Below are positions 5,997 to 63,360 of a stretch of 64,000 nucleotides of DNA, piece by piece (the first letter of the stretch is position 1; the number at the start of each line of letters is the position of its first letter). The DNA is from an uncultured Verrucomicrobiae bacterium. Lineage in GTDB: Bacteria > Verrucomicrobiota > Verrucomicrobiia > Chthoniobacterales > UBA10450. The stretch is taken from NCBI GenBank assembly GCA_963726745.1, contig CAVSDR010000003.1, positions 608,001 to 672,000 on the forward strand. Reading direction: 5' to 3'. The notes beneath the pieces are model-generated. The model was not told where the DNA came from. It made no database searches and saw only the letters and a list, made by a program, of their open reading frames with translations. Made by a program: the position numbers and the translations under genes.

Positions 5997-6300
5997 ACGG
6001 AGACTACAGGCGAACCGCCGATTTCTCTTCGCACAGCCGCTTCCTTAAAAACGCGGCCGGGGACGATTTAGGATGTGCTGTGGCGCTCCGGAAAATTGCT
6101 TGGAAAATGTCGTGCGCAGCCACAGTGGCGAGCACTCTATAAACCGAGGTGGCAATGGCAAAAGAAATTTCGCCGCGCCGGCAATTTCCTCGATTTTCGC
6201 CGCGGCGCGGGCCGCTTCCTCGCGTGCGCGGAGGCCGGAGGGGCGCCTCCCGCGGCCTCACCCTAACGAGTGAAGTTGCTGCCTAACGAGCGCGTCCGGG

Positions 6301-7902
6301 CTACTTTGGCAGGCCCAGGCGCGCGCGTTGCGCGACCACTTCGCTCGCCAGCAGCGGGAGATTCCCCGAGCGCGCGACCAGCGTTTGCCCCACGTCGGAG
6401 AGGAGCAGGTTGATCCATTCCCGCTCGTAGGCGCTCGCCTGGTCGAGCGAGCGCGCGGCCACGTAGCAATAGAACATCCGCTGCAGCGGATATTGCCCGG
6501 AGTAGATCGTCTCCGCGGTCGGCACCGTCGCCGGCTCACCCGAGTTCGCCGCTACCGGCACGCTCCGCACCGGATGAATCCGTGTGCGCAAGGAAGCGAA
6601 GCCTAACGAATCGGGATCCTCGGCGACCGCTTTCTCGACGCCGTGCGAGAAGACCACGTCGCTGTGCTTCATCTCTTCGCGGAACGGTCCGTCCTTGAGC
6701 ACGAGCTGCTGGAAAACGCGCGTCGTCCCGTAGCTCGGGTAGCCGCCCACGAGCTTGATCTCGCCGCCGCGTCCGCCTACTTCGCTCCACTGGCGAATCG
6801 CCGCCGGCGCACCGGCGCGCCGCTCCATCCCGAAGATGGCGTCGAGCTGCGGGATGGTGAGGAACGGCACCGGATTTGCCGCCGGGACGAGAATCTCGAG
6901 CGCGTCGCGCGCGATGCTCACCTCCAGGAGGGAATGCCCGCGCTGGCGGAAGAATTCCTCCTTCTGCGCCGAGCTCATCGCCAGGCTCATCAAGCCGAGC
7001 TGCGCCTGGCCCTTGATCAATTCCTCCGCTGCTCCCGGGCTGCTGGTAAAGCTCGGTTTGAGCTCGGCCCCGGCCACGCGCAGCGCGATCAGGCGCACGG
7101 CGTTGCGCGTGATGTAGCTCACGGTGTTCGCGGTCGCGATCGCCGGCGGCACCAGCCGGCCACTCGTTAGGGGACGATAGACCGGATAACCCGGCTGCCG
7201 GAGCACGGCCGCGCCGGTTTGGTTTACCTGGGCCAAGGGCGGGAGCGAGTGCACCTGGCCCACGTGGGCATTTGCATCGCCGGCCACCTCCCGCCCGCCG
7301 CCTTGCGCAAAGGACCAGTGCCCCGGACTGAGCAAAACGCCCAGCCGTTCAGCCAGCGCTTTCTCGGTTTGCACTTCCGCAGTCACCGCGCTCAGCACCG
7401 GATACAACCCGCCGCCTAAAAGCCGCAGATCCCCGCTCAAACGCCGCACCACGATGATGGTCGCGTCCGGGTAACGGCTCAGCGGAACCACGAAAGTATC
7501 GGTGCCGACTGCGCGGGCGTTGTGCGCCGTCTCGCCGAAGAGGTCTAGCGCGAGCGCGCGGCCGGTGGCATCGAGCAGTTGCACCGCGATGTCGGTGTCT
7601 TTTTGCCAATCAGTCCGCAGCACGAGCGCGAGATCGCCTTCGATTTGCGCGCGCTCGAGCTCGAAACGCAGGGCGCCTTCGCCGAAGGGCTGGCTCGCGG
7701 CCACATGCCACCAGCCATTTTGGATTTCTCCGCCGCTCCGGTGGAGCGCGCGCAGGTAAGCCGGGTCGCCTGCGGTGGTGGTCTTGATTCCCTCCGCGCC
7801 CTCGGCCGAGAACTCAAACTCGACCGTCGCCGGGACCGGCATTTCCGCCGGCGCGAGCAAGGCGCCGAAGACAACCAGCAAGATGGCAAGCCGGAGTTTC
7901 AC
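6301..7902 (-). CDS. PstS-family periplasmic phosphate-binding-like protein with a long N-terminal extra domain
   Basis: C-terminal half has PstS-like segments (IARDALEILV..NPV..LTIPQLDAIF, GTTRVF, IYSGQYPLQR.FY.YV). Probable GTG start at 7902 followed by a signal-like peptide. Confidence 0.7.
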   Translation of the reverse strand: MKLRLAILLVVFGALLAPAEMPVPATVEFEFSAEGAEGIKTTTAGDPAYLRALHRSGGEIQNGWWHVAASQPFGEGALRFELERAQIEGDLALVLRTDWQKDTDIAVQLLDATGRALALDLFGETAHNARAVGTDTFVVPLSRYPDATIIVVRRLSGDLRLLGGGLYPVLSAVTAEVQTEKALAERLGVLLSPGHWSFAQGGGREVAGDANAHVGQVHSLPPLAQVNQTGAAVLRQPGYPVYRPLTSGRLVPPAIATANTVSYITRNAVRLIALRVAGAELKPSFTSSPGAAEELIKGQAQLGLMSLAMSSAQKEEFFRQRGHSLLEVSIARDALEILVPAANPVPFLTIPQLDAIFGMERRAGAPAAIRQWSEVGGRGGEIKLVGGYPSYGTTRVFQQLVLKDGPFREEMKHSDVVFSHGVEKAVAEDPDSLGFASLRTRIHPVRSVPVAANSGEPATVPTAETIYSGQYPLQRMFYCYVAARSLDQASAYEREWINLLLSDVGQTLVARSGNLPLLASEVVAQRARLGLPK

Positions 7903-8044
7903 CTTGGAGCGCAGCCTAACGAGAGACGCCGGTGCGCGACAACCGCAAACTCTGGCCGGCCGCGGGATTATTTCCTCGAAAAAGAAAACACGCAATCCGC
8001 GTGCCTCGCGCGATTTCGTGGTGAAACAATAAAGGAGCGACGCG

Positions 8045-11655: not shown

Positions 11656-11717
11656 CCGGCCAGCGGCGCGCCGCGCCTAACGAGAACAAGGTTTCGGCGC
11701 CCGCCATCTCGCTGGCT

Positions 11718-12021: not shown

Positions 12022-12171
12022 CTACAAGGTCCGGCGACCCTGGATCAAATTGATGATCAGGATCACGACCGCGATCACGAGCAGAATGTGGATGAAGCCG
12101 CCGAGGGTATACGAACTAACGAGTCCGAGCAGCCAAAGCACGAGGAGGATAACGAAGATAGTCCAGAGCAT
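12022..12171 (-). CDS. lmo0937-family small membrane protein (49 aa; not in the ORF track)
   Basis: Manual translation MLWTIFVILLVLWLLGLVSSYTLGGFIHILLVIAVVILIINLIQGRRTL. Confidence 0.9.
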   Translation of the reverse strand: MLWTIFVILLVLWLLGLVSSYTLGGFIHILLVIAVVILIINLIQGRRTL

Positions 12172-12358: not shown

Positions 12359-15023
<2,665 letters not shown>

Positions 15024-15026: not shown

Positions 15027-16082
15027 TTACGGCGTCCGGTCGAGCCCGAGCGGCATGGTCAGCGGCGACGCGATCACCGGCGGCTGTTGCGCCGCAGGAT
15101 GGAATCCGGCCTCCACCGTGAAGGTCAGCTTCTCGTTCCCGCGCATGACCGTGATCGGCACTTTCTCCCCGGCGGTGATGAAGAACGACGCGTCGATCAC
15201 GTCTTCGGGCTGGTGCACTTTTTTGTCGCCTACCTGCAGGAGAACGTCGCCGGTTTGCGCGCCAGAATCCGCCGCCGGCGTACCTGGCATGATGTCGGTA
15301 AATTTTGCCCGTGAACCTTCCACTTCGTTCTCGGACTCGGCCACGTTGATCCCGACCCAGCCGTGACGCACCTCGCCGAAGCGGACGAAATCGCTCCGGA
15401 TTTTCTCCGCGGCATCGATCGGCAAGGCGTAACAGGCGGCGCCGTTATCCACGCTGCTCACAAGAATGCCGACGACTTCGCCCTTGAGATTCAAGAGCGG
15501 TGCGCCCGCCTCGCCCCGTTGCGTCGAGAGATTCACTCGCAGATGCGTGGTCGAAAAGTAGCGGCCGAGAAATTTTCGGTCGAGCCCGGCGATCATGCCG
15601 AAGCTGGGGGTCTTTGGCAGGTCGAGCGGAAAGCCGATGGTCATTACCGGTGTGGTCACCGCGAGATCGCCAGACTTGCCGATCGGCAGCGCCGGCGACG
15701 GCAGGTCGACCTTTAAAAGCGCGATGCCGCTGCGGCGATCGGCCATGACCATGCGCGCAGGCACTTCCTTGCCGTCCATCTCGACGGTAAAATCGTACGC
15801 GTCCGCGCCGACCGAGTAGGCCGTGAAGAGTGTGCCCGTGGGATCGATGAAGAAGCCGGTCCCGGCCAGCTTTCCGTGGTCGTCGAAGGCGCGGATCTTC
15901 ACCACCGCCTTCGCGGAACGCTCAAAAACCTCGCGGACCTCGCGACTGATGGCGCTGGCTGACTGCTCCTGCCCTAACGAGTGGTCGGGCAGGCCCAGGG
16001 CAACAAGCGCACTGATGGTGGCCGCGAGAAGCCACCGGCCAGGGCGAACGCCGCTGCTTTTAGAAGCGGAGCGCTGCCTCAT
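15027..16082 (-). CDS. Trypsin-like (HtrA) fold plus PDZ protein lacking the catalytic triad
   Basis: GTGFFID, TAYSV, SGIALLKV, RGEAGAPLLNLKGEVVGI, then HGWVGI and a PDZ domain. Confidence 0.85.
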   Translation of the reverse strand: MRQRSASKSSGVRPGRWLLAATISALVALGLPDHSLGQEQSASAISREVREVFERSAKAVVKIRAFDDHGKLAGTGFFIDPTGTLFTAYSVGADAYDFTVEMDGKEVPARMVMADRRSGIALLKVDLPSPALPIGKSGDLAVTTPVMTIGFPLDLPKTPSFGMIAGLDRKFLGRYFSTTHLRVNLSTQRGEAGAPLLNLKGEVVGILVSSVDNGAACYALPIDAAEKIRSDFVRFGEVRHGWVGINVAESENEVEGSRAKFTDIMPGTPAADSGAQTGDVLLQVGDKKVHQPEDVIDASFFITAGEKVPITVMRGNEKLTFTVEAGFHPAAQQPPVIASPLTMPLGLDRTP

Positions 16083-18095: not shown

Positions 18096-19232
18096 CTAAA
18101 TCTCCAGGCGCTTCTCGAACTTCGAGATCAAGCGATTCCCGTTTTCAGTCACCACGGCCACATCCTCGATCCGCACACCGCCCAGCCCCGGATAATACAA
18201 CCCCGGTTCCACCGTGATCACCTGCCCCGGCTTGAAGCTCGTTTTCTGAAAGCGCGGGATCTCGTGAATCTCCAGCCCGAGCCCATGCCCGGTGCCATGG
18301 AAAAAGCCCACTTGCTTGCCGTCGCGCACCTCCGTGGGGTAACCGCGATCGGTGAAGAGTTGCTTCACCTCCAGGTGCACCGCGAGGCCATCGGCGCCGG
18401 GCTTCATTTTCTTCAAAGCCAGCGCCTGCCCTTCGCGCACCGTTTCCCAGAGCTTTCGCTGTTCGTCGCTCGCGCTCCCGCGCACCACCGTGCGGGTCAT
18501 GTCGCCGTAGTAACCGCTCGCCGCGTCGCGCGGGAAGATGTCGAGAATGATCAACGAATCCGCGAGGAGCGGGCCAGAGCCGCGCTCGTGCGGATCGCAC
18601 GCCTGGTCGCCGCCGGCCACGATCGTGCCCGCGGGCAAGCCGCCCGCGCGCAAGACCGCGGAGTCAATTTCCGCGCGCAGAATCTCCGAAGTGAGCACGC
18701 GCCCGAACCAATCGAGCCGCTTGTTCCGCCGCGCCTTGCAGGCCGCGAGCACCTCGATCGCGCGCGCCATTCCCTGCTCCGTGATCGAAAGCGCGCGCCG
18801 CATCAGGCGCAATTCGTCGTCTGTTTTTGTTTCGCGCTCCGGGAAGAAGAGACCGCTGACGGTTTTCACGCGGATGCCCGCGCGCGCCAGCTCCTCGGCG
18901 TAGCCTAACGAGAAATTAGCCGGCACGATCGCGGACTTCACCCCGCGCTTCTGGAGGAAATGCGTGAGCACTTTCTCGTAGGCTGGGGCGCGCTTCGCCG
19001 ACCCCTGCACTTCGCGCTCGAACTCGCTGTAGGCAACAATCTCATCCGCCTGCGCCTGCTTCTTCCCGCGGTCGATCTCGAGATCGCTCAAGACCACCGT
19101 GCGCTTCCCGTTTTGCTCCAGAAAGATGAACGGATCCGGCACAAACATGCGCGTCGCGTAGAGCATGTCGGGATCGTGCTCGCTCGAAGCGACGATCAGG
19201 CGGGTGGGAGATTTCTCGGATTTCTTGCTCAC
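18096..19232 (-). CDS. Xaa-Pro aminopeptidase, M24 family
   Basis: DIFPR, YYGDMTRT, FFHGTGHGLGLEIHE, VITVEPGLY and GGVRIED motifs. Confidence 0.93.
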   Translation of the reverse strand: MSKKSEKSPTRLIVASSEHDPDMLYATRMFVPDPFIFLEQNGKRTVVLSDLEIDRGKKQAQADEIVAYSEFEREVQGSAKRAPAYEKVLTHFLQKRGVKSAIVPANFSLGYAEELARAGIRVKTVSGLFFPERETKTDDELRLMRRALSITEQGMARAIEVLAACKARRNKRLDWFGRVLTSEILRAEIDSAVLRAGGLPAGTIVAGGDQACDPHERGSGPLLADSLIILDIFPRDAASGYYGDMTRTVVRGSASDEQRKLWETVREGQALALKKMKPGADGLAVHLEVKQLFTDRGYPTEVRDGKQVGFFHGTGHGLGLEIHEIPRFQKTSFKPGQVITVEPGLYYPGLGGVRIEDVAVVTENGNRLISKFEKRLEI

Positions 19233-25131: not shown

Positions 25132-25254
25132 GCTCAACCTGTAGTGATGCAGCTAACCGCGGGCCGCTCCCTACCAACTTCTGGGATGGCTACCACAATT
25201 CCAGCTGCACCATGCGCCGCCCCGCCAGCGGTAGCTGATCTTGTCTCGTTAGGC
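25132..25254 (+). other. attC recombination site (123 bp)
   Basis: R'' GCTCAAC (25132), L'' arm ATGCAGCTAACCGC (25147-25160) pairing with GCGGTAGCTGAT (25228-25239) with two unpaired extra bases, R' GTTAGGC (25248-25254). Confidence 0.8.
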
Positions 25255-25986: not shown

Positions 25987-26006
25987 TCCCTGACGCGCCG
26001 CTTCTC

Positions 26007-38472: not shown

Positions 38473-38512
38473 AGTCTCGGCCGCACCGGCCGGCGGCGCA
38501 GCCTAACGAGTC

Positions 38513-46230: not shown

Positions 46231-46233
46231 TCG

Positions 46234-47016
46234 TTAGCCATTCCGGAGCCGCTCCGCGCGCCGTTGCATGAACCAGGCGATCCAGATGCAGCTTTCGTAG
46301 AGACCATACATCGGCAACGCCATCGCCAGGAGGCTGAGCACATCCGGCGTGGGCGTGATGAAAGCCGCGAGCACGAAGATGAGCACTACTGCGTAGGGCC
46401 GCGTTCGCGCCATCAGCGCATAAGTGACAAACCCGAGCCGCACGAGCGCGAGCACCACCACCGGCAATTCGAAGGCGAGCCCAAAGCCGATGGTGAAGCG
46501 GGTCACGAAGGAATAATATTCCTGCACCGTCCAGGCTGGCTGCCAGCCGAGCGACTGCGTGTCCTTGAAGAAAAACGCGATCGTGTTCGGCAACAAAAAG
46601 TAATAGCAGGCGAGCACGCCGGTGAGGAAAAGCGCGAAGCTTACAAAAATAGCCGGCAACATCAGCCGCTTCTCCACCGCGGTCAGCGCCGGGAGGATGA
46701 ACTCCGCGAGGAAGTAAAGCAGGAGCGGAAACGAGAGCACGATCCCGGCATAGAATGCGAGCGAGAAGGAGATCGTAATCGAGTCGGTGATCCCGAGCGC
46801 GCGCAGCGCCCCGATCTCCGGCGAAACCTTGTGCAGCGGGCGCTGCAGCAGATTTACCAGCTCCTCGCGAAAAGCGAACGCGAGGATCATGGTCACGAAA
46901 AGCGTGATCGCCATCTTCACGATCGTCCAGCGCAGGTCCTCGAGGTGTTCGAGGAACGGCTTGGCCGATTCGGTTTCCGGGATTTCCCGAAACTTGAAAA
47001 AATTCCGCAGCGCCAT
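46234..47016 (-). CDS. tatC: Twin-arginine translocase subunit TatC
   Basis: FLEHLEDLR, FILPALT..EK, GLAFELP, ITPTPD and LYE motifs. Confidence 0.95.
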   Translation of the reverse strand: MALRNFFKFREIPETESAKPFLEHLEDLRWTIVKMAITLFVTMILAFAFREELVNLLQRPLHKVSPEIGALRALGITDSITISFSLAFYAGIVLSFPLLLYFLAEFILPALTAVEKRLMLPAIFVSFALFLTGVLACYYFLLPNTIAFFFKDTQSLGWQPAWTVQEYYSFVTRFTIGFGLAFELPVVVLALVRLGFVTYALMARTRPYAVVLIFVLAAFITPTPDVLSLLAMALPMYGLYESCIWIAWFMQRRAERLRNG

Positions 47017-47770: not shown

Positions 47771-50578
<2,808 letters not shown>

Positions 50579-50579
50579 A

Positions 50580-52904
50580 CTACAACTTCGGATCGAACTT
50601 CCGCCACGCCGTCCAGGCGCGTTCCCAATTTTCCTGCGCGGCCCAGGCCTGGGCTTCGAGGAAATGGAAATACGCCGGAGCAGCCGGCTGGTCGGTGAAG
50701 CGGCGCACGGTGATGAGCGCGTCGGCTATTTTCCCGGCGCGCATCTGCTCCTGGTAAAGCGCGAGGCCGCCGAGGTAATCGTTCGGCGCGAAGCCTTGCG
50801 CCGGCGCGACGTTCGCGGTCTCGGGTAATTTTGGCGGCAGGCTAAAGCGCTGCGCAAGTTCCACGGCCGCGCGAAAGTCCCCCCGCTCCGCCTGCGCCTG
50901 CGCCACCGCCCGCCACGCCTGCGGCAGGAGCGACGGGTTTTCCTCCACGAGCACGAGCAGTCGCGCGCGCTCGCCCCGCTCGCGCCAAAGCGCGAATAGC
51001 TCCCGCTGTTGCCCCGCGCTCAAGCTTGCCAGCGCCGGATCGTGCGCCAGCAAACGCTCCAGTGCCGCCTCGAAATCCGCGCCCGTCGCGCGCGCGAGAA
51101 AAGTGAGCGCGAGGTCCGGCTGCACGCTCCCAAATTCGAGCAGCCGCCGCCGCACCGCGGGGTTGAGCTGGGTCGCGCTCGAGAGCATGCGCGCGTAGAG
51201 CGTGGCGCGCTCGGTTCCGGCGCGGCGCAAAGCCTCGCGCCATGCGGTCAACGTGAGTAATGGATCGCGCGTGACCCAGGCGAGCCCTTCCTGATACGGC
51301 ACCTCGAAAGAGGTCGACTCGAAGAAGCGCGCGCGGCGAAAATCCGCCAACGCCTCGTTAGGCCGGCCGGCGCCGACCTCGCCGAGCGCGCGCACGAAGT
51401 AGAGTTGCCAATCGAGCGGCGCCCACTGCAATCCGCGCGTAGCCTGCGCGATCACCGCCGGGTAATCGCCTTCCGCATTCGCTTTCGTGGCCAGGCGCCG
51501 GGCCGTATCCGCACCGATTCCGCCGGGAAGCGAAGAACTCCAGGCCCAGGTCCCACCGAGCACGATAAGCATCGCGCCCAGCCCGCGAAAAATAACCGGC
51601 AAGCTGCGGCTGCTCGTGGCCGGCCGATGGAGCGCGAGGGCAAACAAGAAGAGCCCCGCATAGGCCGAGCCGACCCGATGCCCGGAGACATCGACCAGGC
51701 CGTGCAGCGCGAAGAGCGAGGCCGCGAGCAGCGCGGCCAGGCGCAAGCGCACATTGGTTCCTTCGCCGAGCGGCGGGAAGCGCCGGAGAAGCAAGGCCGC
51801 GCCCAGCAGAAGCAAGACGACCGCAGGCCAGCCAAGCTCCGCCGCGGTCCACAGCCAATCACTTTCCGGATGGAGCACGCGATTCTGCCCGCTGGAGGCG
51901 TCGCGGAAAATCGAGAAGACCGGCGAGAAATTTCCCAAGCCAATGCCGGTCCAGGGCGAAGTCCGGATCAACTCCAGCGTGTCGCGAAAGATCAGCCAGC
52001 GAAAATCAGCCGACACATTGGCGCCCTCGCCGCCGCGCAAATGGAAGCGCTCAAGTGTAGCGCCGCCGAAAAGCAGCACCGCAGTCAACAGGACGAGCAA
52101 CGCCGAAAAACCGAGCGCAATCCGTGCCGGCGATCCGCTGCGCAGGACCAGCAAGCCGAGCCAGAACGCGCTCCCGACGACAAAAATCGCCAGGCCCGCG
52201 CGCGAGAAATTCAGGACCAACGCCACCGCGATCACGGCCACGCCGAGCAACCAAAAGACCCAGCGCTTCCTCCCTTTCCGCAGCTCCTCCTGCCCGCAAG
52301 CCAGCAGGATGACCGCGCTGATTCCAAGCAAGTCGGCGGTTTGATTGCGATTTGGGAATGGCCCAAAGCCGCGCTGGTTATGCCAGAACGGCAGCGCAGT
52401 TTTCGCGAGATAGAGGCCGATCATGAGCGCCGCCAGCAGGGCGACGCCGCCCGCAAAGACGCGCAATTGCCGGCGGAGCGCGTGGCCATCGAGCTCCTGC
52501 GCGCTCGCGTAGTAGAGCCACCCCAGCCCCGCGACCAGGCTGCCGAAGCCACCGGCGCTGATCCACGGTTGGGGCGACAAAGTAGCCGGCAGGATGAGAT
52601 TGAAATCGTTCCGCAAAACCTCCCGCCAGGCCGGCTGCGGAAACCAGCTCGCGGGCAAAAACGCCAGCGCGGCGCAGCTCACGAGCAGGAGCGCGACAAG
52701 GTGGAACCAAAGGCCCTGCGAGCGTCGCGGCGGATTAGCCAGCCAGATCACCCCAAGGAGCGCGACCACGATCCCCTCGGCCCATTTCTCGGTCGCGCCG
52801 CCGAGAAAGCAGGCCACCAGCGGCAGCGCCGGGACGGCAAAGTCGCGCCAATGCAGCGGCGCGCGATCCCCTCGGCGGAGGCGTTGGCGGCGGGGCTCTC
52901 CCAT
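50580..52904 (-). CDS. O-antigen ligase-family membrane protein with a helical/TPR-like C-terminus
   Basis: GPFPNRNQ, SRAG, GIGLGNF and HPESDWL motifs; many TM helices. Confidence 0.85.
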   Translation of the reverse strand: MGEPRRQRLRRGDRAPLHWRDFAVPALPLVACFLGGATEKWAEGIVVALLGVIWLANPPRRSQGLWFHLVALLLVSCAALAFLPASWFPQPAWREVLRNDFNLILPATLSPQPWISAGGFGSLVAGLGWLYYASAQELDGHALRRQLRVFAGGVALLAALMIGLYLAKTALPFWHNQRGFGPFPNRNQTADLLGISAVILLACGQEELRKGRKRWVFWLLGVAVIAVALVLNFSRAGLAIFVVGSAFWLGLLVLRSGSPARIALGFSALLVLLTAVLLFGGATLERFHLRGGEGANVSADFRWLIFRDTLELIRTSPWTGIGLGNFSPVFSIFRDASSGQNRVLHPESDWLWTAAELGWPAVVLLLLGAALLLRRFPPLGEGTNVRLRLAALLAASLFALHGLVDVSGHRVGSAYAGLFLFALALHRPATSSRSLPVIFRGLGAMLIVLGGTWAWSSSLPGGIGADTARRLATKANAEGDYPAVIAQATRGLQWAPLDWQLYFVRALGEVGAGRPNEALADFRRARFFESTSFEVPYQEGLAWVTRDPLLTLTAWREALRRAGTERATLYARMLSSATQLNPAVRRRLLEFGSVQPDLALTFLARATGADFEAALERLLAHDPALASLSAGQQRELFALWRERGERARLLVLVEENPSLLPQAWRAVAQAQAERGDFRAAVELAQRFSLPPKLPETANVAPAQGFAPNDYLGGLALYQEQMRAGKIADALITVRRFTDQPAAPAYFHFLEAQAWAAQENWERAWTAWRKFDPKL

Positions 52905-55688: not shown

Positions 55689-56542
55689 GCCCCGGAATCC
55701 TCCCGCTTCTTCTGCAATTCAAAAGTCTTCGCGACCGAGAGGAACTCATAAAAGCCATGCAGCCGCGCGAAGTAATACCCTTCGCGCCCATCGAGAAAAC
55801 CCCGCTGCCAGACGTAAACGTAAAGGAACCGCAGCAGCCCGCGGAACGGCAGCCGATGCGAGAGCTGCTTCAACTTCCGCCGCCGATGGACCCGCTCGTG
55901 TTCCAATCCCGCCGAGCTGCCGGCTAGTTTCCGCTCCGTCGCCACCCGCGCTTCCCAGTTCGAGTAGCGATTGTGTTTCTCCACAAAAACTTCCACTGAA
56001 GGGAACGCGTAGTGATCCATCTCGCAGCGCAGTCGCCCGGTTGGTCCCTGCACGATCACGTGCTCGTGCACTTCGTTGTCGCCGCTCTGCGTGGCCGCTT
56101 CGGTCAACTTCTCGTAGCGCCCTAACGAGTGCTTGAAGAGGCGCAGGTTCCAGTTCGGGTAATAGGCGTGCTTCAGCCAGCGACCGAGAAAAAGGAAGCG
56201 CCGGTTGATCCAATAGCCAGCAACTTCACCGGGCGCGGTCACCGCCGCGCGAAACTCCGCCTCTGCCTCCGGCGGCAGGGTTTCGTCAGCGTCGAGAATG
56301 AAAATCCAGTCGTTCCGGAACGGCAGGTTCTCCAGCGACCAATTCTTTTTCTTCGGCCAGGTGCCGTTAAACGGGAACTGCACCACCTGCGCGCCGAACT
56401 TTTCCGCGAGCGCAATCGAGCCGTCGGTGCTGCCGGAATCGACCACGAAAATTTCATCAGCCCACGGAATCGAGCCGAGGCAACGCGGCAGATTTTCCGC
56501 CTCGTTCCGGATCGGGATGATGAAAGAAACCGGGACCTTCAT
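55685..56542 (-). CDS. GT2 glycosyltransferase
   Basis: IIPIRNE, VVDSGSTD, ILDADE and VHEH motifs. Confidence 0.92.
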   Translation of the reverse strand: MKVPVSFIIPIRNEAENLPRCLGSIPWADEIFVVDSGSTDGSIALAEKFGAQVVQFPFNGTWPKKKNWSLENLPFRNDWIFILDADETLPPEAEAEFRAAVTAPGEVAGYWINRRFLFLGRWLKHAYYPNWNLRLFKHSLGRYEKLTEAATQSGDNEVHEHVIVQGPTGRLRCEMDHYAFPSVEVFVEKHNRYSNWEARVATERKLAGSSAGLEHERVHRRRKLKQLSHRLPFRGLLRFLYVYVWQRGFLDGREGYYFARLHGFYEFLSVAKTFELQKKREDSGA

Positions 56543-57345: not shown

Positions 57346-57905
57346 GCTTCCAGGTTGCGCGGCTTGAGCACGCGGCAAGGATTGCCCGCCGCAATCGAAT
57401 CCGGCGGCACATCCTGCGTCACCACCGAGCAGGCACCGATGACGCTGCGCGCGCCAATCGTCAGGCCCGGCATGATGAAAGCGCGCGCGCCGATGAACGC
57501 GTCTTCGCCGATGGTGATCTTGCCGGTAACCAGCGGGATGCTTCGGCGGGTGAAATCGTGCGTTCCCGTGCTCAGGTAAACTTCCTGCGCCACCGTGGCC
57601 CGCGCGCCCACCTCGATCTCGCCTAACGAGTAGACGTTCGTCCGGTCGCCGAGGCACGAGCGGTCGTGCAAAGTTAGGTGCCACGGGATTTCGATCCGCG
57701 CGCGCTGGTGGACGAAGGGCTGGCCGTGAATGGTGGCCCCAAAGGCGCGCAGCCAAACGAGCCGCCAGGCGTTCAGCGGCTTCGGCGTCCAGGCGCAAAA
57801 GACCGCCCAGCAGAAATCCCAGAGCACCCGCCAGAGACGTTCCCCGGCTGACCAGGGCGAGCCGTAGAGTTCCTGGTCGGGCTTGACCGTTTGCAGCTCC
57901 GGCAT
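57342..57905 (-). CDS. WcaF-like hexapeptide-repeat acetyltransferase
   Basis: LRAFGA, PWHL, YSLGEI, LSTGTHD and AGNP motifs. Confidence 0.9.
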   Translation of the reverse strand: MPELQTVKPDQELYGSPWSAGERLWRVLWDFCWAVFCAWTPKPLNAWRLVWLRAFGATIHGQPFVHQRARIEIPWHLTLHDRSCLGDRTNVYSLGEIEVGARATVAQEVYLSTGTHDFTRRSIPLVTGKITIGEDAFIGARAFIMPGLTIGARSVIGACSVVTQDVPPDSIAAGNPCRVLKPRNLEA

Positions 57906-57911
57906 GGCTCG

Positions 57912-59040
57912 TTAGGCCGCCGCGCGGATGAGCGCGCGAAAGTCCTCCAGGTATTCGTCCGCGATCTGCTCCACCGAGAAGGAGGCCTTCGCTTTCGCGA
58001 AGGAAGCCGCGCCCATCGCGGGGATGCGCTGCGCGCTCCCGCGAAAAATAGCCGACACCTTCAGCCCACGCGGCGGCGTCGCCGGCGCGCGCGATGTAGC
58101 CGTTTCCTTCGTGGTCGACCATTTCGCGCATCGGCCCGAAATCGGAAACCAGGAGCGGCTTGGCGCACGACATCGCCTCGAGCGCGGCCATGCTGAAGGT
58201 CTCGCCAGTCAGCGAGGGCAGGCAAAAAACCGCCGCCCGCCCGAGCTCGCTGAATAATCTCTCGCGCTCGAAAATTGGCGGCTCGATCGAGACCTGTGCA
58301 CCGCACGGATCGCCCGCAAGCACCCCGCGCATCTCCTCGAGAAAGGGCACATCCGTCCCCTCCTCCGTCGTCTGCGGGCCGATAATTCGCAGCCGAATCG
58401 AGTCGTCCCGCGCGGCCGCAGCGAGAAATCCGCGAATGAGCGAGTCGAGCCCTTTGTCGCGCACAAAGCGACCGACATAGAGAAAAGTAAGCGGCTCGTC
58501 GAACCCGGCGGCCGGCATTTCCGCCGGGAGCTCGATGCAATTGTGCACCGCTTTCAACTTCGGGCGCAGCCGGGGCGAAATCGCGAGCGCCTGCTCCACG
58601 ACCGCGTGGCTCCCGCCATAGATGCGATCAAGGTTGCCGTAGAGATGCGCGATCCATTTCGGCGTGCGGTGCATCGTGTGCGTGCAGACGCCGAGCCCGC
58701 GTTTGTGGCGCAGGAGAAAGGAAAAAGGCGTGTGCATCGAAGTCACGTCGGCCGGTTTCAAGAGCGGCCAGACGCGCAAGCTATACGGAAGCGCCTGCAA
58801 GTTATCGATCCAAACATTTGCATGCCCCGGCGCGCCGCCGACGCGGAAATGCTCGATCCCGTGGGCGTCGGTCTCGTGCTCGGCCAACCCGGAGGCCGCG
58901 GGCGAGTAGGCGGTCACGCGATGACCGCGCGCGGCAAATTGCTTCGCCAGCATCCAGACGAGATTGTTCACCCCGCCCCCGCGCGTGGGCGGAAACGGCA
59001 CCTGGTGGCCGACGACGAGATTGATCCGGAGCGGTGACAT
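57912..59040 (-). CDS. GT4 glycosyltransferase; apparent indel near 58030
   Basis: PPTRGGGV, YVGRF..DKG and ETFSMAALEAM motifs; the true C-terminus (...FSVEQIADEYLEDFRALIRAAA*) is in another frame. Confidence 0.88.
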
Positions 59041-60154
59041 CACGATTCGGCCAGAATCTTTAGCAGCAATGCTGCCGCCCGCTCGATTTCGAAGCGGTTT
59101 CGGAAACAATCTGCCGCCCGCTCTCCCATCGTGACGCGTTCTGCGGGCGGCAGGGCCAGCCAGCGGCGCAGGAGGCGCTCGGTCCCGGCAAGGTCATCCG
59201 TTTCCACCAGGCCGGCGCCATCGGCTCTCGACCTCGCGGCAGATGTTGATCCGGTCGGAGATCAGGACCGGGCGCGCGCAGGCCAGCGCCTCAACCACCG
59301 AGAGGGCGAAGTTCTCCTGGTGCGACGGGAGGATGAAGACCTCCGCCGCCCGCAGCGCGCTCCACTTGAGCGAGCCCTCGAGCATGCCGGTGAAGAGCAC
59401 ATTCGCCCCGGCGCGGCGCTGGAGCTCGCCGTCCCATTGGTCGGGGCCGGCCATCACGAGCGTGAGCGACGAGTCGTTAGCCGACACTTTGGCAAACGCT
59501 TCAAGCAGGAGGTCGCAGCCTTTTTTGGGGTGCAATCGCCCAAGAAAGAGGATCAACCTGCGCCCGCGCGTTTCCGGGAAAGCGCTGGCAAAATTCCTCC
59601 GCGGAACCGACCGGCGGCGCGGGCACGCCCAACGGGAGAATCTTTTCGCGGCAGCGATAAAGCCAGAACGATTCCCGCGCTTCATCGCGCTCCGCCGCAG
59701 CGGTGAAGAGAACCGCGCGCGCGTCACGCAGGACGCGGTATTCGGCCCACGGCCAGTAGAACCATTTCTTCAGGTGCTTCAGCGGATAGGTGCGCTTGAA
59801 CCACGGATCGAGCATTCCGTGCGGGAAAACGAAGTAGGGCGTCGCGGTGCCGGCGAGCGCGCGATGCACCGCCAGGCCGGGATATTGCCAAAGACCGTTC
59901 ACGATCACGGCATCAAAGCGCTGCCTATTTTCACGGAGCCACGGGACCAGCCGAGGCGAGCGCCCGTAGCCTTCAGGGCCCGGCCCGAGGAGATGAGTCG
60001 TTAGGCCGGTGCCAATGCTGGCGCCCGGCGCATCGAGGCTCGCGATTTCCACCGCGTGTCCCTGCCGCGCCATCTCTTCGCTCAAGGAAACGACCGCGCT
60101 GGCGACGCCGCCGGAGTGCGCGGCCAGCGTTCGCACCACCTGCAGCACCCTCAT
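59040..60154 (-). CDS. GT4 glycosyltransferase; apparent indels near 59610 and 59225
   Basis: SGGV, PHGMLDPW, FLGRLHPKKG and PSHQENFA..VVEALA motifs across frames. Confidence 0.88.
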
Positions 60155-60816: not shown

Positions 60817-61922
60817 GCCGCCTCCAGTGCGCGATACATTTCCTGGTATTCGGCAATCATTCGCTCGGCGGAAAATTGCCGCGCGTTCTCCAGGCTGCGG
60901 GCGCTCCAGCGGGCGCGCTCCGCGGGATCGCTCAGCCGGAGGATCTCGTCGGCAAAACCTTGCTCGTCCTCGACCGCGTGAATCAAACCAGCTTCGCCCG
61001 CCACTTCCGGCATCGGCGGAGTTGCGCTGCAGATCACCGGGCAGCCGCAGGCCTGCGCTTCCGCGATGGGCCAGCCGAAGCCTTCGAAACGCGACGGGTA
61101 AAGCAGCGCGGTCGCGCGCTGGTAAAGCGCCTCGAGGAGGGAATTCTCCGGATGCACCGCTTCCACAACTCGCTGTCTAATCCCCATCTCGTCGGCTAAC
61201 GAGCGCAATTCCGCAGGGAGCGGTTCGCCCGCAAAGACGAGTTGTCCATGCCAATGGGGCGCCGTCCGGGCAAAAATGCGGAGTGCGCCGTCGCGATTTT
61301 TTCGGCGCAGGTTCGAGCCGACGTGGAGGACGAACGGACGGGCGAGATCGAGGCCAGCGATGCTGGGTTCCATCGCGGGCGTGGGGCCGTAGGGATGGCT
61401 CAAGCCGAGTGTGATCACGCGCAGCGCGGGGCGCTTTCCTGCCGGCAAAAGCCGATCAGCATCCTCTAAGGTCGCGCGCGAATCGCACGCGATCGCATCG
61501 GCCGCAGCCAATCCGCGCAGGATCCAGCGTTGCAAAAAATTCCCCGCAGCCGAGGCCGGGCAATCCGTTTCCTCGCCGAGCGCGCCACGCACCGCCAGCA
61601 GATCGTGACAGGTCACGAGCACCGCAGTCGGGCGAGCGGCGCGGACGTAAACCGCGTTTGAATGATCGCAAATGTGGACCAACGAGACGTCGCCGCGCGC
61701 GAGGCGTCGCCGCAGTTGCCGCGGGAACAGGAGATACTTGTCGAGGTAGGCCAGCCATTTGCCGGCAAATTCACCCGCGGCGCGCCAGCGTCCGAAGAAG
61801 GGCCGGGGTTGCAGCAGCTCCGCCGGTTGCCCCGCAGCCCTCAGGCCTTCGAGCATCATCTGGCCAAAGCGAAGCATGCTTTGCTGCCGGTCCGGCGCGT
61901 AGTTACCGATCAGCAGAACCAT
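60813..61922 (-). CDS. GT4 glycosyltransferase
   Basis: TCHDL, HVGSN..RKN and PSRFEGFGWPIAEAQACG motifs. Confidence 0.92.
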   Translation of the reverse strand: MVLLIGNYAPDRQQSMLRFGQMMLEGLRAAGQPAELLQPRPFFGRWRAAGEFAGKWLAYLDKYLLFPRQLRRRLARGDVSLVHICDHSNAVYVRAARPTAVLVTCHDLLAVRGALGEETDCPASAAGNFLQRWILRGLAAADAIACDSRATLEDADRLLPAGKRPALRVITLGLSHPYGPTPAMEPSIAGLDLARPFVLHVGSNLRRKNRDGALRIFARTAPHWHGQLVFAGEPLPAELRSLADEMGIRQRVVEAVHPENSLLEALYQRATALLYPSRFEGFGWPIAEAQACGCPVICSATPPMPEVAGEAGLIHAVEDEQGFADEILRLSDPAERARWSARSLENARQFSAERMIAEYQEMYRALEAA

Positions 61923-63360
61923 TGCGGGGCGTGGGCGGCGAAGGCGGCGCGACCGGTTCCGTCGGTGGACCGTGCAGGCGGGCGGCATAAGCCGAGCGGC
62001 CGGGCATCCGCAGCCGCGCGCCCGGCTTTCCTGCGAATACTTCGCCTAACGAGTTGTCGTCCGCGGCTTCTTCCTCGTGCCGCGCGCCCAGGACCAGGCC
62101 CATGGTGAAGACGGAAAATCCCAGCACGGTCGGCTGGCCAAACTGGCCATTGATCATCGGCAGAAAGGAAGCGCTGTAGAGCAGGAGTGGCAGCACGTTT
62201 CCCTGCTGCACGGACCGCAGGCAAAGCCAGCCGATGGCCACAACCAAACCAAACCGCCAGAGAACGAAGGCCAGCCCGAGGACAGGTCCGCTTTCCAGAA
62301 ACAGGCGCGACCATTCCCCTTCCGCGAGCAGAAACATGCTTTTGCCGGTGAGGAATCTCGCCCCCGCATTAGTCCCGATGCCGAGGCCATAGCCGAGGAA
62401 AGGCGCTTTCGTCAGGACGTGGAAGCCGTCGGCAAAATCGCTCACGACGCGCTCGACCAACCCGGCGCCGACGGAAGTTTCGGTAGCTTCCGCGACCTCC
62501 GCAAAGCGAGTCGTGAGCACGTTCAAGCCTTCCTTGAAGATCGGCGTGCGGGAAAGGATCAGGCCGAGGATTACCGTGACCACGAGCGTCTGGCCAAAGC
62601 GATTGACCGCCGAGGGACGGAGAAACAAAACCACCGCGAGCGAAGCCACCACGACCGCGCAGGCGCCCACGACCGAGCGGCTCCCGGAGACGACGATGCC
62701 AATAACCAAGGCGCTGCCGGCGGCAAAGAGCAGCCAGTTCTTGTAGACGTCGCGCCGCAACGCGGCCCAGATAAGAAAACCGGTCGAGAGGGCGAAGTAT
62801 GCCACCACCCCGATGACAAACGAGAACGGCCCCGCGGTCCGGACTTTGCCGAGCGCACTCTGCATCATCTCGCCTTCGCCGCCGGTGGTGCGATTCAGAA
62901 AAGCATCGGGCGAAGCGCGGAATTGCGCCACCATGAGCACGGTCATGGGCACGAGGATGAGGAGCGTGGCCCAGCCGATGCGCTTCACGTCTTCGCGCCG
63001 GAGGACGCGTTCCATCACAAAGATGAGCGGGAGATGAAGGAAATTGCAGCGGAAGCCGTAGCCAGTCACGAGCGCGATCCTCTGCGCATCGATGTAGGGC
63101 GCGAGCTGCACAATGCTCACCAGGACCGTGAGCAGACCGATGACGCCAAGGCCAACGACCCAACGATTCCAGGGGAAAATCTGCGCCCGAAAGGCCAGCA
63201 GGTAGATGGCCACGACCACCGGATCGCGCACCAGCAAGAGCGGATTCGAAAGGCCGGGGACGACCCATTTCCGGAGCGCGCCTTCGATGATCAGGAGCAC
63301 GAAGTAGAGCCAGATGAGCCACCGGATGTGGGCGATGGTTTTCTCGGGGGCGTGGTTCAT
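61903..63360 (-). CDS. Multi-TM polysaccharide polymerase-like (Wzy/O-antigen ligase-like) protein
   Basis: LLIIEGALRKW, SGSR and GYGLGIGTN motifs; about 11 hydrophobic helices; located inside the GT cluster. Confidence 0.7.
   Translation of the reverse strand: MNHAPEKTIAHIRWLIWLYFVLLIIEGALRKWVVPGLSNPLLLVRDPVVVAIYLLAFRAQIFPWNRWVVGLGVIGLLTVLVSIVQLAPYIDAQRIALVTGYGFRCNFLHLPLIFVMERVLRREDVKRIGWATLLILVPMTVLMVAQFRASPDAFLNRTTGGEGEMMQSALGKVRTAGPFSFVIGVVAYFALSTGFLIWAALRRDVYKNWLLFAAGSALVIGIVVSGSRSVVGACAVVVASLAVVLFLRPSAVNRFGQTLVVTVILGLILSRTPIFKEGLNVLTTRFAEVAEATETSVGAGLVERVVSDFADGFHVLTKAPFLGYGLGIGTNAGARFLTGKSMFLLAEGEWSRLFLESGPVLGLAFVLWRFGLVVAIGWLCLRSVQQGNVLPLLLYSASFLPMINGQFGQPTVLGFSVFTMGLVLGARHEEEAADDNSLGEVFAGKPGARLRMPGRSAYAARLHGPPTEPVAPPSPPTPRNGSADR

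What the first reader, a model, noticed from the sequence alone, without database searches (positions are those of the whole stretch)
6261..62053. Over-represented dispersed motif GCCTAACGAG written into genes with rare codons: candidate uptake-sequence/HIP-like DNA signal
Seen: by eye CTAACGA occurs 21 times on + and 16 times on -, and the exact 10-mer GCCTAACGAG 17 times. A simple base-composition estimate at an assumed 66% GC gives about 4 and about 0.15. Most copies are inside CDSs in at least four frame/strand phases: TCG-TTA-GGC = Ser-Leu-Gly (6601, 18903, 22642, 31151, 36716, 45736, 57621, 62044), CCT-AAC-GAR = Pro-Asn-Glu (13331, 38980, 51354), CTA-ACG = Leu-Thr (39727, 40481, 41002, 43386, 59997) and CTC-GTT-AGT = Leu-Val-Ser (12115, 20003). 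These use TTA/CTA/GTT/CCT codons that are otherwise scarce here. I saw no copies in actABCD, glgX or ppdK, and two copies sit 20 bp apart in the 6261-6290 intergenic gap. Established: frame-independent, both-strand enrichment is the pattern of Neisseria DUS, Pasteurellaceae USS and cyanobacterial HIP1, whereas Chi and KOPS are strand-polarised. Inference: a DNA-level signal such as an uptake sequence, nucleoid-protein site or methylation/recombination-driven repeat. I do not recognise this motif as described. The pilD gene is compatible with competence but is not evidence for it.
Basis: partly seen in the sequence, partly recalled or inferred. Interest (0 to 1): 0.9.

Follow-up and report, generated by a model that had tools for sequence, protein, structure and literature searches.

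The report
Hyper-abundant self-DNA word in soil Verrucomicrobia
A ten-letter DNA word is written hundreds of times through the genes of this uncultured soil bacterium, overriding codon and even amino-acid preferences, which most resembles the DNA-uptake tags so far described only in Neisseria and Haemophilus relatives, although what reads it is still unknown.

Summary
GCCTAACGAG occurs 17 times in the window (0.1 expected) and 820 times in the 3.41-Mb genome, on 7 of 7 contigs. It is the commonest 10-mer there.

- **DNA-level signal:** it survives an amino-acid-preserving codon shuffle (614 copies in genes against 9 expected). It uses all four stop-free frames. 425 of 747 Ser-Leu-Gly tripeptides are written with it. 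It has no conserved flanks and no replichore polarity.
- **Distribution in the genome:** it is depleted in low-GC DNA, and close pairs are fewer than chance.
- **Taxon and relatives:** the organism is an uncultured Chthoniobacterales (Verrucomicrobiota). The 9-mer core is enriched across one family (13 to 2,519 copies) and nearly absent from 15 sister families.
- **Second word:** some sister genera carry AAGATCGAC instead. One genome carries both, and three carry neither.

Best reading (about 45%): a DNA-uptake-enhancing sequence kept up by biased transformation. ComEC and PilT are universal, and two candidates (the DUF7305 pilin-like family and pilin F) and a ComP-type domain failed. Chi, Ssn/NTS, repeat-element and artefact readings are disfavoured.

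This scan had noted the same word before in other genomes, and my literature searches found no paper on it.

The parts
6261..6270 (+). variant copy CCCTAACGAG, intergenic, 20 bp from the next copy
6281..6290 (+). exact GCCTAACGAG, intergenic between the PBP-like gene and the act operon
6601..6610 (+). GCCTAACGAA, antisense in gene 6301-8094(-), read TCG-TTA-GGC (Ser-Leu-Gly)
7163..7172 (-). CCCTAACGAG, sense in gene 6301-8094(-), CTA-ACG (Leu-Thr)
7914..7923 (+). exact copy, antisense in gene 6301-8094(-), CTC-GTT-AGG (Leu-Val-Arg)
11675..11684 (+). exact copy, 20 nt downstream of the PDZ gene 10912-11655(+)
12114..12123 (+). core-only copy AACTAACGAG, no confident gene call
13331..13340 (+). 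exact copy in ligA 12792-15023(+), CCT-AAC-GAG (Pro-Asn-Glu). The same column is CCT-AAC-GA in 29 of 73 LigA loci and CCG-AAC in many others
13799..13808 (-). GGCTAACGAG, antisense in ligA, TCG-TTA-GCC (Ser-Leu-Ala)
15972..15981 (+). CCCTAACGAG, antisense in protease gene 15027-16082(-), Ser-Leu-Gly. Intact in an Illumina-derived contig
18903..18912 (+). exact copy, antisense in M24 peptidase gene 18096-19232(-), Ser-Leu-Gly. All 7 of the 9 compared loci that aligned at this place (L029, L013, L010, L038, L015, L001, L009, L066 tested; 7 gave an aligned segment) have unrelated letters there, so it was gained in this lineage
20002..20011 (+). core-only copy GACTAACGAG in ABC transporter gene 19264-23214(-)
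22642..22651 (+). exact copy, antisense in gene 19264-23214(-), Ser-Leu-Gly
24018..24027 (-). core-only copy CACTAACGAC, in a stretch without a confident gene call
24369..24378 (-). ACCTAACGAG, in a stretch without a confident gene call
25245..25254 (-). exact copy, in a stretch without a confident gene call
31151..31160 (-). GCCTAACGAA, antisense in the ftsH-like gene 30729-31745(+), Ser-Leu-Gly
35174..35183 (-). core-only copy GACTAACGAG, sense in the glgX-like gene 32761-35967(-), Leu-Thr
36716..36725 (+). exact copy, antisense in amidase gene 36518-37546(-), Ser-Leu-Gly
38501..38510 (+). exact copy in the 40-bp gap between divergent genes
38980..38989 (+). GCCTAACGAA, sense in gene 38513-39613(+), Pro-Asn-Glu
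39727..39736 (-). GCCTAACGAA, sense in amidohydrolase gene 39627-40295(-), Leu-Thr
40481..40490 (-). GCCTAACGAC, no confident call (probably the frameshifted amidohydrolase)
41002..41011 (+). exact copy overlapping the end of call 41004-41375(-)
42085..42094 (-). core-only copy GGCTAACGAC, no confident call
43386..43395 (+). exact copy, sense in gene 43205-43684(+), Leu-Thr-Ser
43736..43745 (-). exact copy, intergenic, about 50 nt downstream of a stop codon
45736..45745 (+). exact copy, antisense inside pilD (prepilin peptidase, 45127-46230(-)), Ser-Leu-Gly
46230..46239 (-). GGCTAACGAA at the tatC / pilD gene junction
51354..51363 (-). exact copy, sense in the O-antigen-ligase-like gene 50580-52904(-), Pro-Asn-Glu
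56120..56129 (+). CCCTAACGAG, no confident call
57621..57630 (+). exact copy, antisense in gene 56539-59109(-).
57908..57917 (-). exact copy, sense in gene 56539-59109(-), Leu-Thr-Ser
59473..59482 (-). core-only copy GGCTAACGAC, no confident call
59997..60006 (-). GCCTAACGAC, sense in glycosyltransferase gene 59501-60154(-), Leu-Thr
61194..61203 (+). GGCTAACGAG whose TAA is the stop codon of call 60876-61199(+)
62044..62053 (+). exact copy, antisense in gene 61903-63483(-), Ser-Leu-Gly

Best explanation
GCCTAACGAG is a lineage-specific "self" word. Its invariant core is CTAACGA, and the best 9-mer is GCCTAACGA. It is kept at hundreds to thousands of copies by a force that acts on double-stranded DNA and favours each copy's transmission, that is, a molecular drive.

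The most likely drive is biased natural transformation. A surface or periplasmic part of the type IV pilus competence machinery binds the word. Fragments that carry it are taken up preferentially, pass through ComEC, are loaded by DprA and RecA, and replace word-less alleles. Point mutations that create the word therefore spread, even where they cost rare codons or amino-acid changes.

Shown here: the anatomy, the statistics, the phylogenetic pattern and the presence of the machinery. Inferred: that uptake is the reading step, and what the receptor is.
For: **Abundance and sharp specificity**
- 820 copies against 4-8 expected under order 0-3 models. It is the commonest 10-mer in the genome.
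- Core positions are almost invariant. Flanking positions carry at most 0.28 bits, so it is not part of a longer repeat.

**It acts on DNA, not on protein or RNA**
- All four stop-free frames are used: 329 Ser-Leu-Gly, 123 Pro-Asn-Glu, 103 Leu-Thr, 56 Leu-Val-Arg. A further 124 copies are intergenic (15.1%, matching the 14.8% non-coding share) and 85 lie at gene edges.
- 614 copies in genes against 9.1 under synonymous shuffling.
- 425 of 747 Ser-Leu-Gly and 146 of 237 Pro-Asn-Glu tripeptides use the word's codons. These tripeptides are themselves over-represented (observed/expected 1.61 and 2.40).
- In LigA orthologues the word arises in place, without indels. Changes are synonymous (CCG to CCT, CTC to CTA) or replace residues (ERLGF to ESLGM).

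**Orientation-blind**
- 681 forward and 631 reverse copies of the 9-mer. No polarity across 50-kb bins.

**One copy per stretch seems to suffice**
- 3.6% of neighbour distances are under 200 bp, against 8.6% expected.

**It builds up with residence time**
- 1.26 copies per 10 kb in the lowest GC3 decile of genes, against 3.9-4.7 in the top five deciles.
- About 1 per 10 kb in 10-kb windows below 60% GC, against 5.4 at 64% or more.

**Clade-specific, with alternative words**
- In 72 of 72 other genomes of the family the 9-mer is found, at 13-2,519 copies. In 48 genomes of 15 other families of the order there are 0-35 copies, below the reversed-word control.
- Genera with the second word AAGATCGAC reach up to 4,752 copies.
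- Sites are gained independently in this lineage.

**Machinery is present**
- pilD lies in the window. ComEC, a ComEA-like HhH protein, DprA and PilT are present, with many prepilin-type genes.

**Downstream-of-gene bias**
- Copies are 2-3 times enriched in the 60 nt after stop codons. This is reminiscent of the downstream-of-gene bias of DUS and USS (abstract of bioRxiv 10.1101/2025.10.24.684340).
Against: - No uptake experiment exists, and none of my literature searches found a report of competence in this phylum.
- The general machinery does not track the word. ComEC is in 116 of 121 genomes and PilT in 72 of 73, including the word-free G068, G083 and G051.
- No ComP_DUS domain passes its cut-off (best 21.9 bits against 27.3).
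- The two receptor candidates I tested are not co-distributed with the word.
  - The DUF7305 pilin-like proteins are missing from the word-rich G013, G036, G042, G043 and G045, and present in the word-free G068 and G083.
  - Pilin F has full-length orthologues only in the low or middling G005, G012 and G018.
- About half of DUS and USS copies lie in terminators. Here only 37 neighbour pairs under 150 bp exist among 1,514 core sites, 18 of them inverted.
- One-mismatch neighbours of the core are not enriched (478 observed, 585 expected). From recall, they are enriched for the Haemophilus USS.
- Two unrelated words at high density in one genome (G071: 1,803 and 4,752 copies) is, as far as I recall, not described for DUS or USS.
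Confidence: 0.45

Rival explanations
1. The word is the binding or recognition site of an abundant intracellular reader. Examples are a nucleoid-associated or chromosome-organising protein, or a defence nuclease that treats the word as a "self" mark. It would be kept by selection on the chromosome as a whole, not by uptake.
For: - Sharp specificity, orientation-blindness, even spread over 7 of 7 contigs and depletion in atypical DNA fit this reading as well.
- The competence genes do not discriminate word-rich from word-free genomes.
- No pilin receptor was found.
Against: - Selection per site would be minute. Yet sites override codon usage and change residues thousands of times. That is easier with a per-site transmission bias.
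- Known sites of this class are tens to a few hundred per genome, or palindromic (recalled).
- The word shows no preference for promoters or intergenic DNA.
- Replacement by an unrelated word in sister genera, and coexistence of two words, would need repeated replacement of a core chromosomal protein.
Confidence: 0.2
2. A drive of another kind writes the word. Candidates are sequence-specific biased gene conversion or mismatch repair (of the very-short-patch type) tied to a non-palindromic methyltransferase, or a mobile specificity module that spreads between lineages.
For: - Distribution on the LigA tree is patchy. The first word needs at least 5-8 changes and the second at least 6-7.
- Intensity varies about 15-fold within one genus (138-2,435 copies).
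- Two words coexist in G071 and G061.
- The one-mismatch spectrum is lopsided. G to A at core position 7 occurs 121 times against 5 expected, while the mirror change C to T at position 6 occurs 0 times against 9 expected. Deamination of a methylated C on one strand would give this pattern.
Against: - Known patch repair acts on one position and gives about two-fold enrichment, not 80-fold (recalled).
- Word gains need 3-4 substitutions at once at some sites.
- No methylation data could be read. The runs found are contigs, not raw reads.
- No candidate enzyme was identified.
Confidence: 0.17
3. A Chi-like recombination hotspot, or a KOPS-like polar motif.
For: - Chi words are also short, non-palindromic, species-specific and over-represented (recalled).
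- The window alone shows 13:4 strand bias.
Against: - Genome-wide the strands are nearly balanced, and no polarity follows GC skew. On contig C6, with negative skew throughout, the counts are 127:124.
- The window's bias follows gene orientation.
- No RecC was found, and only one 470-aa PDDEXK_1 open frame, so no AddAB-sized gene was found with these families in a genome that is 94.7% complete.
- Enrichment is about 80-fold, far above that of Chi (recalled).
Confidence: 0.04
4. Not a signal at all: a piece of a dispersed repeat (REP, MITE or an Ssn-type NTS hairpin), a codon or peptide effect, or a base-calling artefact of a long-read assembly.
For: - The assembly carries frameshift-like splits in ppdK, ftsH and uvrC, as long-read assemblies do.
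Against: - Flanks are not conserved and the word sits in frame in conserved genes without indels.
- The codon-preserving null fails by 67-fold.
- The same word is found in dozens of independent short-read assemblies and in an Illumina-derived contig.
- The only GIY-YIG match is a split uvrC, so no Ssn-type nuclease was found.
- NTS elements are 30-bp hairpins with 2% inside genes (PMC11893778, passages read).
Confidence: 0.01

Closest known systems
DNA uptake sequence (DUS) of Neisseriaceae; 10-12 nt; receptor is the minor pilin ComP
   Same: A short non-palindromic word at roughly one copy per 1-4 kb, on both strands and in all usable frames. It distorts codons and peptides and is clade-specific, with variant words in sister clades. 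It is depleted in foreign DNA and more frequent just downstream of genes. Type IV pilus, ComEC and DprA genes are present.
   Different: - Different phylum and an unrelated sequence.
- No ComP_DUS domain above its cut-off.
- Few inverted-repeat terminator copies.
- The sister word is unrelated, not a one- or two-letter dialect.
- Two words can share a genome (G071).
- Uptake is untested.
Uptake signal sequence (USS) of Pasteurellaceae; 9-nt core; ComN/PpdA predicted as receptor (PMC12616744, search listing and abstract only)
   Same: A 9-nt core with weaker flanking preferences, mostly inside genes. Proteome-level enrichment of the encoded tripeptides. Fewer close pairs than chance. Two alternative words exist within one family.
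   Different: - There is no AT-rich flanking segment.
- One-mismatch forms are not enriched.
- The ComN homologue was not tested.
- No experimental evidence of competence.
HIP1 (GCGATCGC) of cyanobacteria
   Same: A hyper-abundant, frame-independent, clade-specific word of unknown reader, probably maintained at the DNA level.
   Different: HIP1 is a palindrome containing a Dam-type site. This word is asymmetric.
Chi (RecBCD/AddAB) and KOPS (FtsK)
   Same: Short, asymmetric, species-specific, over-represented words.
   Different: - Those are polarised with replication and only a few-fold enriched.
- Here there is no polarity, about 80-fold enrichment, and no RecC or AddAB-sized gene found.
NTS repeats read by the Ssn GIY-YIG single-strand nuclease (PMC11893778)
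   Same: A repeated word linked to natural transformation. Copy number differs strongly between related species.
   Different: - NTS is a ~30-bp hairpin, 2% of copies are inside genes, and it clusters around particular genes.
- Here the word is a bare 9-10-mer, about 75% of copies lie inside genes, it is evenly spread, and no stand-alone GIY-YIG gene was found.

Membership tests
DNA uptake enhancing sequences (DUS/USS) | Short non-palindromic word, hundreds to thousands of copies, both strands about equal | tested here: met
   820 copies of the 10-mer (445/375) and 1,312 of the 9-mer (681/631) in 3.41 Mb; it is the commonest 10-mer
DNA uptake enhancing sequences (DUS/USS) | Enrichment acts on DNA: frame-independent and beyond codon and amino-acid usage | tested here: met
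   Four frames plus intergenic copies; 614 against 9.1 under synonymous shuffle; 425 of 747 Ser-Leu-Gly tripeptides use the word; in-place substitutions in LigA
DNA uptake enhancing sequences (DUS/USS) | Clade-specific, with variant words in related clades | tested here: met
   Family f1: 13-2,519 copies. Fifteen other families: 0-35. Second word AAGATCGAC in other genera of f1
DNA uptake enhancing sequences (DUS/USS) | Large share of copies in inverted-repeat transcription terminators | tested here: not met
   15% of copies are intergenic. Only 37 pairs under 150 bp among 1,514 core sites, 18 of them inverted. There is, however, a 2-3-fold excess within 60 nt after stops
DNA uptake enhancing sequences (DUS/USS) | Depleted in recently acquired DNA | tested here: met
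   Using GC as a proxy: lowest GC3 decile 1.26 per 10 kb against 3.9-4.7 in the top five deciles. A 35-kb gap lies in a stretch of 59% GC
DNA uptake enhancing sequences (DUS/USS) | Bias towards genome-maintenance genes | not tested
   No genome-wide functional annotation was made
DNA uptake enhancing sequences (DUS/USS) | Type IV pilus, ComEC and DprA competence machinery encoded | tested here: met
   pilD, ComEC, ComEA-like and DprA, PilT. These are also present in word-free relatives, so they do not discriminate
DNA uptake enhancing sequences (DUS/USS) | Dedicated minor-pilin receptor (ComP with a ComP_DUS domain; ComN/PpdA predicted for USS) | tested here: not met
   PF16732 best match 21.9 bits, below the cut-off of 27.3. 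ComN was not searched. The two candidates tested, the DUF7305 pilin-like family and pilin F, are not co-distributed
DNA uptake enhancing sequences (DUS/USS) | Sequence-biased DNA uptake shown by experiment | not testable with these tools
   The organism is an uncultured MAG
Chi / KOPS polar motifs | Orientation follows the replication direction | tested here: not met
   No polarity in 50-kb bins; contig C6 gives 127:124 under uniform skew
Chi / KOPS polar motifs | RecBCD or AddAB present | tested here: not met
   No PF04257 match. One PDDEXK_1 match in a 470-aa open frame. The genome is 94.7% complete
HIP1-type iterated palindromes | Palindromic word | tested here: not met
   The word differs from its reverse complement (sequence itself)
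REP / MITE / NTS dispersed repeats | Conserved flanks or hairpin, mostly intergenic; for NTS, an ssnA GIY-YIG gene | tested here: not met
   Flanks carry at most 0.28 bits. About 75% of copies are inside genes. The only GIY-YIG match is a split uvrC

The most novel reading that the evidence does not exclude
One family of soil Verrucomicrobia runs a system of interchangeable "genome words". There are at least two unrelated words, GCCTAACGA and AAGATCGACA. Each rises to thousands of copies, fades, is swapped, or coexists with the other, while the type IV pilus and ComEC machinery is present throughout. This points to a portable specificity module, or to a sequence-writing drive that is not the ComP/ComN type of uptake receptor. 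It would be a previously undescribed way in which a small genetic element rewrites whole genomes, including 7% of their stop codons and a fifth of two rare codons.
Probability: 0.25. Interest if true: 0.92.

Novelty: new variant of a known kind. Interest (0 to 1): 0.8.

Why it matters
- **Scope of uptake tags.** According to a 2025 survey (abstract read), uptake tags are known from only two proteobacterial families. A third, unrelated case in an abundant and uncultured soil lineage would suggest that word-guided DNA exchange between relatives is widespread in soil.
- **A test of the molecular-drive theory.** The family offers a natural experiment: graded intensities, two words, both words in one genome, and word-free relatives.
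- **A handle on an uncultured group.** The word could help find the receptor, assign metagenomic contigs to hosts, and perhaps make this group transformable.
- **Practical effects on genome analysis.** The word distorts codon-usage and stop-codon statistics in these genomes.

Tried and rejected
**Receptor hunt**
- The DUF7305 large pilin-like proteins form two paralogous sets next to small pilins, one beside dprA. They were scanned over 121 genomes and are not co-distributed with the word.
- Pilin F, the best sub-threshold ComP_DUS match of full length, has orthologues only in genomes with low or middling word counts.
- Neither DUF7305 protein has a meaningful sequence match in the PDB.
- A blind whole-proteome association could not be run with one query per search.

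**General machinery as a discriminator**
- ComEC and PilT are near-universal, so they are uninformative.

**Rival readers**
- Chi: no RecC and no AddAB-sized gene.
- Ssn: only a split uvrC.

**Third word in word-free genomes**
- None was seen in 52-91 kb samples of G083, G068 and G051.

**Aligning the window's 11 core sites to the closest loci at DNA level**
- Most sites were too diverged to align. Only 3-4 sites per locus were informative.

**Reads**
- Only low-share Logan contigs of two soil runs were listed, and no RNA holder was listed. No raw reads were available, so no methylation call was possible.

**Other**
- Rfam scan of the window: no match.
- Literature: six searches found no paper linking this word, or any uptake sequence, to Verrucomicrobia. 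The 130 papers that contain the 9-mer string looked like unrelated primers in the 15 listed.

Full report
**1.

The exact 10-mer GCCTAACGAG occurs 17 times in the window, 13 on + and 4 on -. Dinucleotide shuffles gave a mean of 0.10 and a maximum of 1 of 100. The 7-mer CTAACGA occurs 37 times against 2.99 expected.

The window is G000:C3:608001-672000, in a genome of 3,406,779 bp with 7 contigs and 63-64% GC. Genome-wide there are 820 copies of the 10-mer, on 7 of 7 contigs, at 1.6-4.1 per 10 kb.

It is the single most frequent 10-mer of the genome, ahead of GC-only words at 634. The 9-mer GCCTAACGA, at 1,312 copies, ties with its reverse complement as the second most frequent 9-mer, behind only the CG-repeat word pair. 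Markov expectations are 7.7 (order 0), 4.4-6.1 (orders 1-3), 24 (order 4) and 254 (order 5, which already contains the word's own hexamers).

**2. Anatomy of the word**

- The core CTAACGA (positions 2-8) is almost invariant.
- Position 0 prefers G, then C. Position 1 prefers C, then G, then A. Position 9 prefers G, then C or A.
- The 20 bases on either side carry at most 0.28 bits each and show only codon periodicity. The word is therefore not a fragment of a longer repeat.
- One-mismatch variants of the core are not enriched as a class (478 observed, 585 expected). The exception is G to A at position 7, at 121 against 5 expected. The mirror change at position 6 is 0 against 9. I have no firm explanation for this.

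**3. It is a DNA-level signal**

I called 2,815 genes with a rough codon-usage caller, covering 85% of the genome. Some calls and frames are uncertain, and the assembly has frameshift-like splits.

The 820 copies fall as follows:

| Class | Copies |
|---|---|
| TCG-TTA-GGC, Ser-Leu-Gly, antisense | 329 |
| CCT-AAC-GAG, Pro-Asn-Glu | 123 |
| CTA-ACG-AG, Leu-Thr | 103 |
| CTC-GTT-AGG, Leu-Val-Arg | 56 |
| Intergenic (15.1%; non-coding DNA is 14.8%) | 124 |
| Across a gene boundary | 85 |

The two unused frames carry TAA or TAG.

- Shuffling synonymous codons within each gene leaves 9.1 copies (maximum 16 in 30 shuffles) against 614 observed in genes.
- 425 of 747 Ser-Leu-Gly and 146 of 237 Pro-Asn-Glu tripeptides are spelled with the word. 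About 0.5% would be expected for Ser-Leu-Gly from codon usage.
- These tripeptides are themselves over-represented (observed/expected 1.61 and 2.40), unlike their permutations.
- 628 of 2,874 TTA codons and 294 of 1,503 CTA codons lie in the word.
- In aligned LigA genes from 73 loci the word appears in place, without indels. It arises by synonymous change (CCG to CCT at the Pro-Asn-Glu column, in 29 of 73 loci) and by residue change (ERLGF to ESLGM in one clade).

**4. Distribution along the genome**

- *No polarity.* There is no replichore-scale polarity. Contig C6, with negative GC skew throughout, has 127:124 copies. The window's 13:4 excess follows its gene orientation and the favoured antisense frame.
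- *Spacing.* Neighbouring sites are rarely close: 3.6% lie under 200 bp against 8.6% expected. Only 37 pairs under 150 bp exist among 1,514 core sites, and 18 of them are inverted.
- *Composition.* Density rises with local GC although the word is half A+T. It is 1.26 per 10 kb in the lowest GC3 decile of genes against 3.9-4.7 in the top five deciles. In 10-kb windows it is about 1 below 60% GC against 5.4 at 64% or more. The longest gap, 35 kb, lies in a stretch of 59% GC.
- *Position within genes.* Relative position is flat across deciles.
- *Stop codons.* 209 of 2,815 called genes end with a stop codon inside the word: 124 as CC-TAA-CGA and 85 as TCGT-TAG-G. Copies are 2-3 times enriched in the 60 nt after stops. 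I read the stop-codon spike as cheap formation of the word where TAA or TAG already exists and constraint is low. That reading is an inference.

**5. Who has it**

Titles of the closest LigA loci place the organism among uncultured soil Chthoniobacterales (Verrucomicrobiota). LigA identity is 70-79% to its own clade and about 55% to Candidatus Udaeobacter.

Counts over 121 genomes:

| Group | GCCTAACGA | AAGATCGAC |
|---|---|---|
| 72 other genomes of family f1 | 13-2,519 | baseline 40-160, hyper-abundant in 17 genomes |
| Genus g1 (33 genomes) | 138-2,435 | baseline only |
| 48 genomes of 15 other families of the order | 0-35, below the reversed-word control | 2-158 |

- Examples of the second word: G071 4,752, G050 2,736, G054 1,567 and G059 1,558 copies. 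The first hint came from the loci.
- G071 carries both words (1,803 and 4,752 copies), as does G061 (585 and 1,304). A 40-kb sample of G071 confirms it.
- G068, G083 and G051 have neither word, and samples of 52-91 kb show no third word.
- On a LigA tree of 73 rows the first word needs at least 5-8 changes of state and the second at least 6-7. At the 22-kb scale this window's nearest LigA relatives are word-poor.
- At least one site of the window (18903) is unique to this lineage.

Claims that rest partly on genomes flagged unpublished:
- G001 and G042 among the word-rich members of the genus.
- G051 as a word-free genome.
- G058 as rich in the second word.
- G008 and G047 as middling.

The conclusions stand without these genomes.

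**6. Not an artefact**

The word is equally dense in many short-read assemblies. An Illumina-derived contig of a soil run covers 15864-16020 with five differences, none in the word.

**7. What reads it**

- *Machinery present.* The genome encodes pilD (in the window), ComEC, a short ComEA-like HhH protein, DprA, PilT and many prepilin-type proteins in several clusters.
- *But not discriminating.* ComEC is in 116 of 121 genomes and PilT in 72 of 73, including the word-free ones.
- *No receptor found.* No ComP_DUS domain passes its cut-off. The DUF7305 pilin-like family and pilin F are not co-distributed with word density.
- *Rival readers.* No RecC or AddAB-sized gene was found, and no stand-alone GIY-YIG nuclease.

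**8. Interpretation**

An 80-fold excess built from thousands of separate substitutions, against codon and residue preferences, calls for a per-site transmission advantage and not for whole-genome selection. The only described mechanism that gives one to a bare, asymmetric, orientation-blind word is biased DNA uptake followed by recombination.

Several features fit that model: the deficit of close pairs, the depletion in atypical DNA, the clade-specific words and the downstream-of-gene excess. Several do not fit the DUS/USS template: few terminator pairs, no enriched one-mismatch cloud, no known receptor domain, and two unrelated words in one genome.

My estimates are:

| Reading | Probability |
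|---|---|
| Uptake tag | about 0.45 |
| Intracellular reader under selection | 0.20 |
| Another drive (repair- or methylation-linked, or a mobile specificity module) | 0.17 |
| Chi-like | 0.04 |
| No signal | 0.01 |
| Open | remainder |

**9. Prior knowledge**

- A 2025 preprint on uptake-enhancing sequences treats them as a feature of Neisseriaceae and Pasteurellaceae, with about half of the copies in terminators (abstract).
- ComN is predicted as the USS receptor (PMC12616744; search listing and abstract only).
- The Ssn/NTS system is a different kind of repeat (PMC11893778; passages read).
- Six literature searches found nothing on this word or on uptake sequences in Verrucomicrobia.
- This scan had already noted the same 9-mer in three other Chthoniobacterales genomes and read it the same way. 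It had also noted other words in other Verrucomicrobia. Those are unverified notes. I re-derived the statistics and the second word here.

Noticed in passing
window 47669-50578; 29594-31745; 39627-40791; also G000:C5:167436-168975: Several conserved genes look split by frameshifts: ppdK in two ORFs, ftsH, an amidohydrolase, and uvrC elsewhere in the genome. These could be indel errors of a long-read assembly or real pseudogenes. None of the breaks checked coincides with the word.
   Followed up: partly
window 23215-27590: A 4.4-kb stretch with lower GC (0.568 for 24001-28000), no confident gene call and no Rfam match. It holds three copies of the word's core.
   Followed up: partly
genome-wide (G000): 209 of 2,815 called genes end on a stop codon that lies inside the word (124 CC-TAA-CGA, 85 TCGT-TAG-G). 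Stop usage is nearly even (TAG 984, TGA 930, TAA 901), which is unusual for 64% GC. This rests on a rough gene caller.
   Followed up: partly
genome-wide (G000): The variant GCCTAACAA (G to A at core position 7) occurs 121 times against 5 expected. The mirror change at position 6 occurs 0 times against 9 expected. It could be a tolerated variant or strand-specific deamination of a modified C.
   Followed up: no
G071, G061, G050, G054, G059, G078, G079 and others; loci L045-L047, L054, L062, L064, L069: A second, unrelated hyper-abundant word, AAGATCGACA(A/T), reaches 1.6 copies per kb. It replaces or accompanies the first word in other genera of the same family.
   Followed up: partly
G000:C6:646467-646521: Two copies of the word lie 46 bp apart in the short gap just upstream of the pilT gene (C6:646559-647686). 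This may be chance.
   Followed up: no
G000:C3:1052246-1052281: Three copies lie within 36 bp between convergent genes. Two of them form a perfect 10-bp-stem hairpin, a rare terminator-like arrangement of the DUS type.
   Followed up: no
G000:C6:623497-626133 and G000:C3:584383-586936: Two paralogous sets, each of two small prepilin-like genes plus a ~500-aa DUF7305 protein (30% identical to each other), one set beside dprA-ssb. The layout recalls the Thermus comZ locus (recalled). They are not co-distributed with the word.
   Followed up: yes
G022:C7:94047-96651, G090:C14:36544-42307 (another family of the order): In otherwise word-free genomes the 9-mer recurs on one strand every 0.4-1.2 kb within single loci. 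This is probably a repeated coding unit of a large gene.
   Followed up: no
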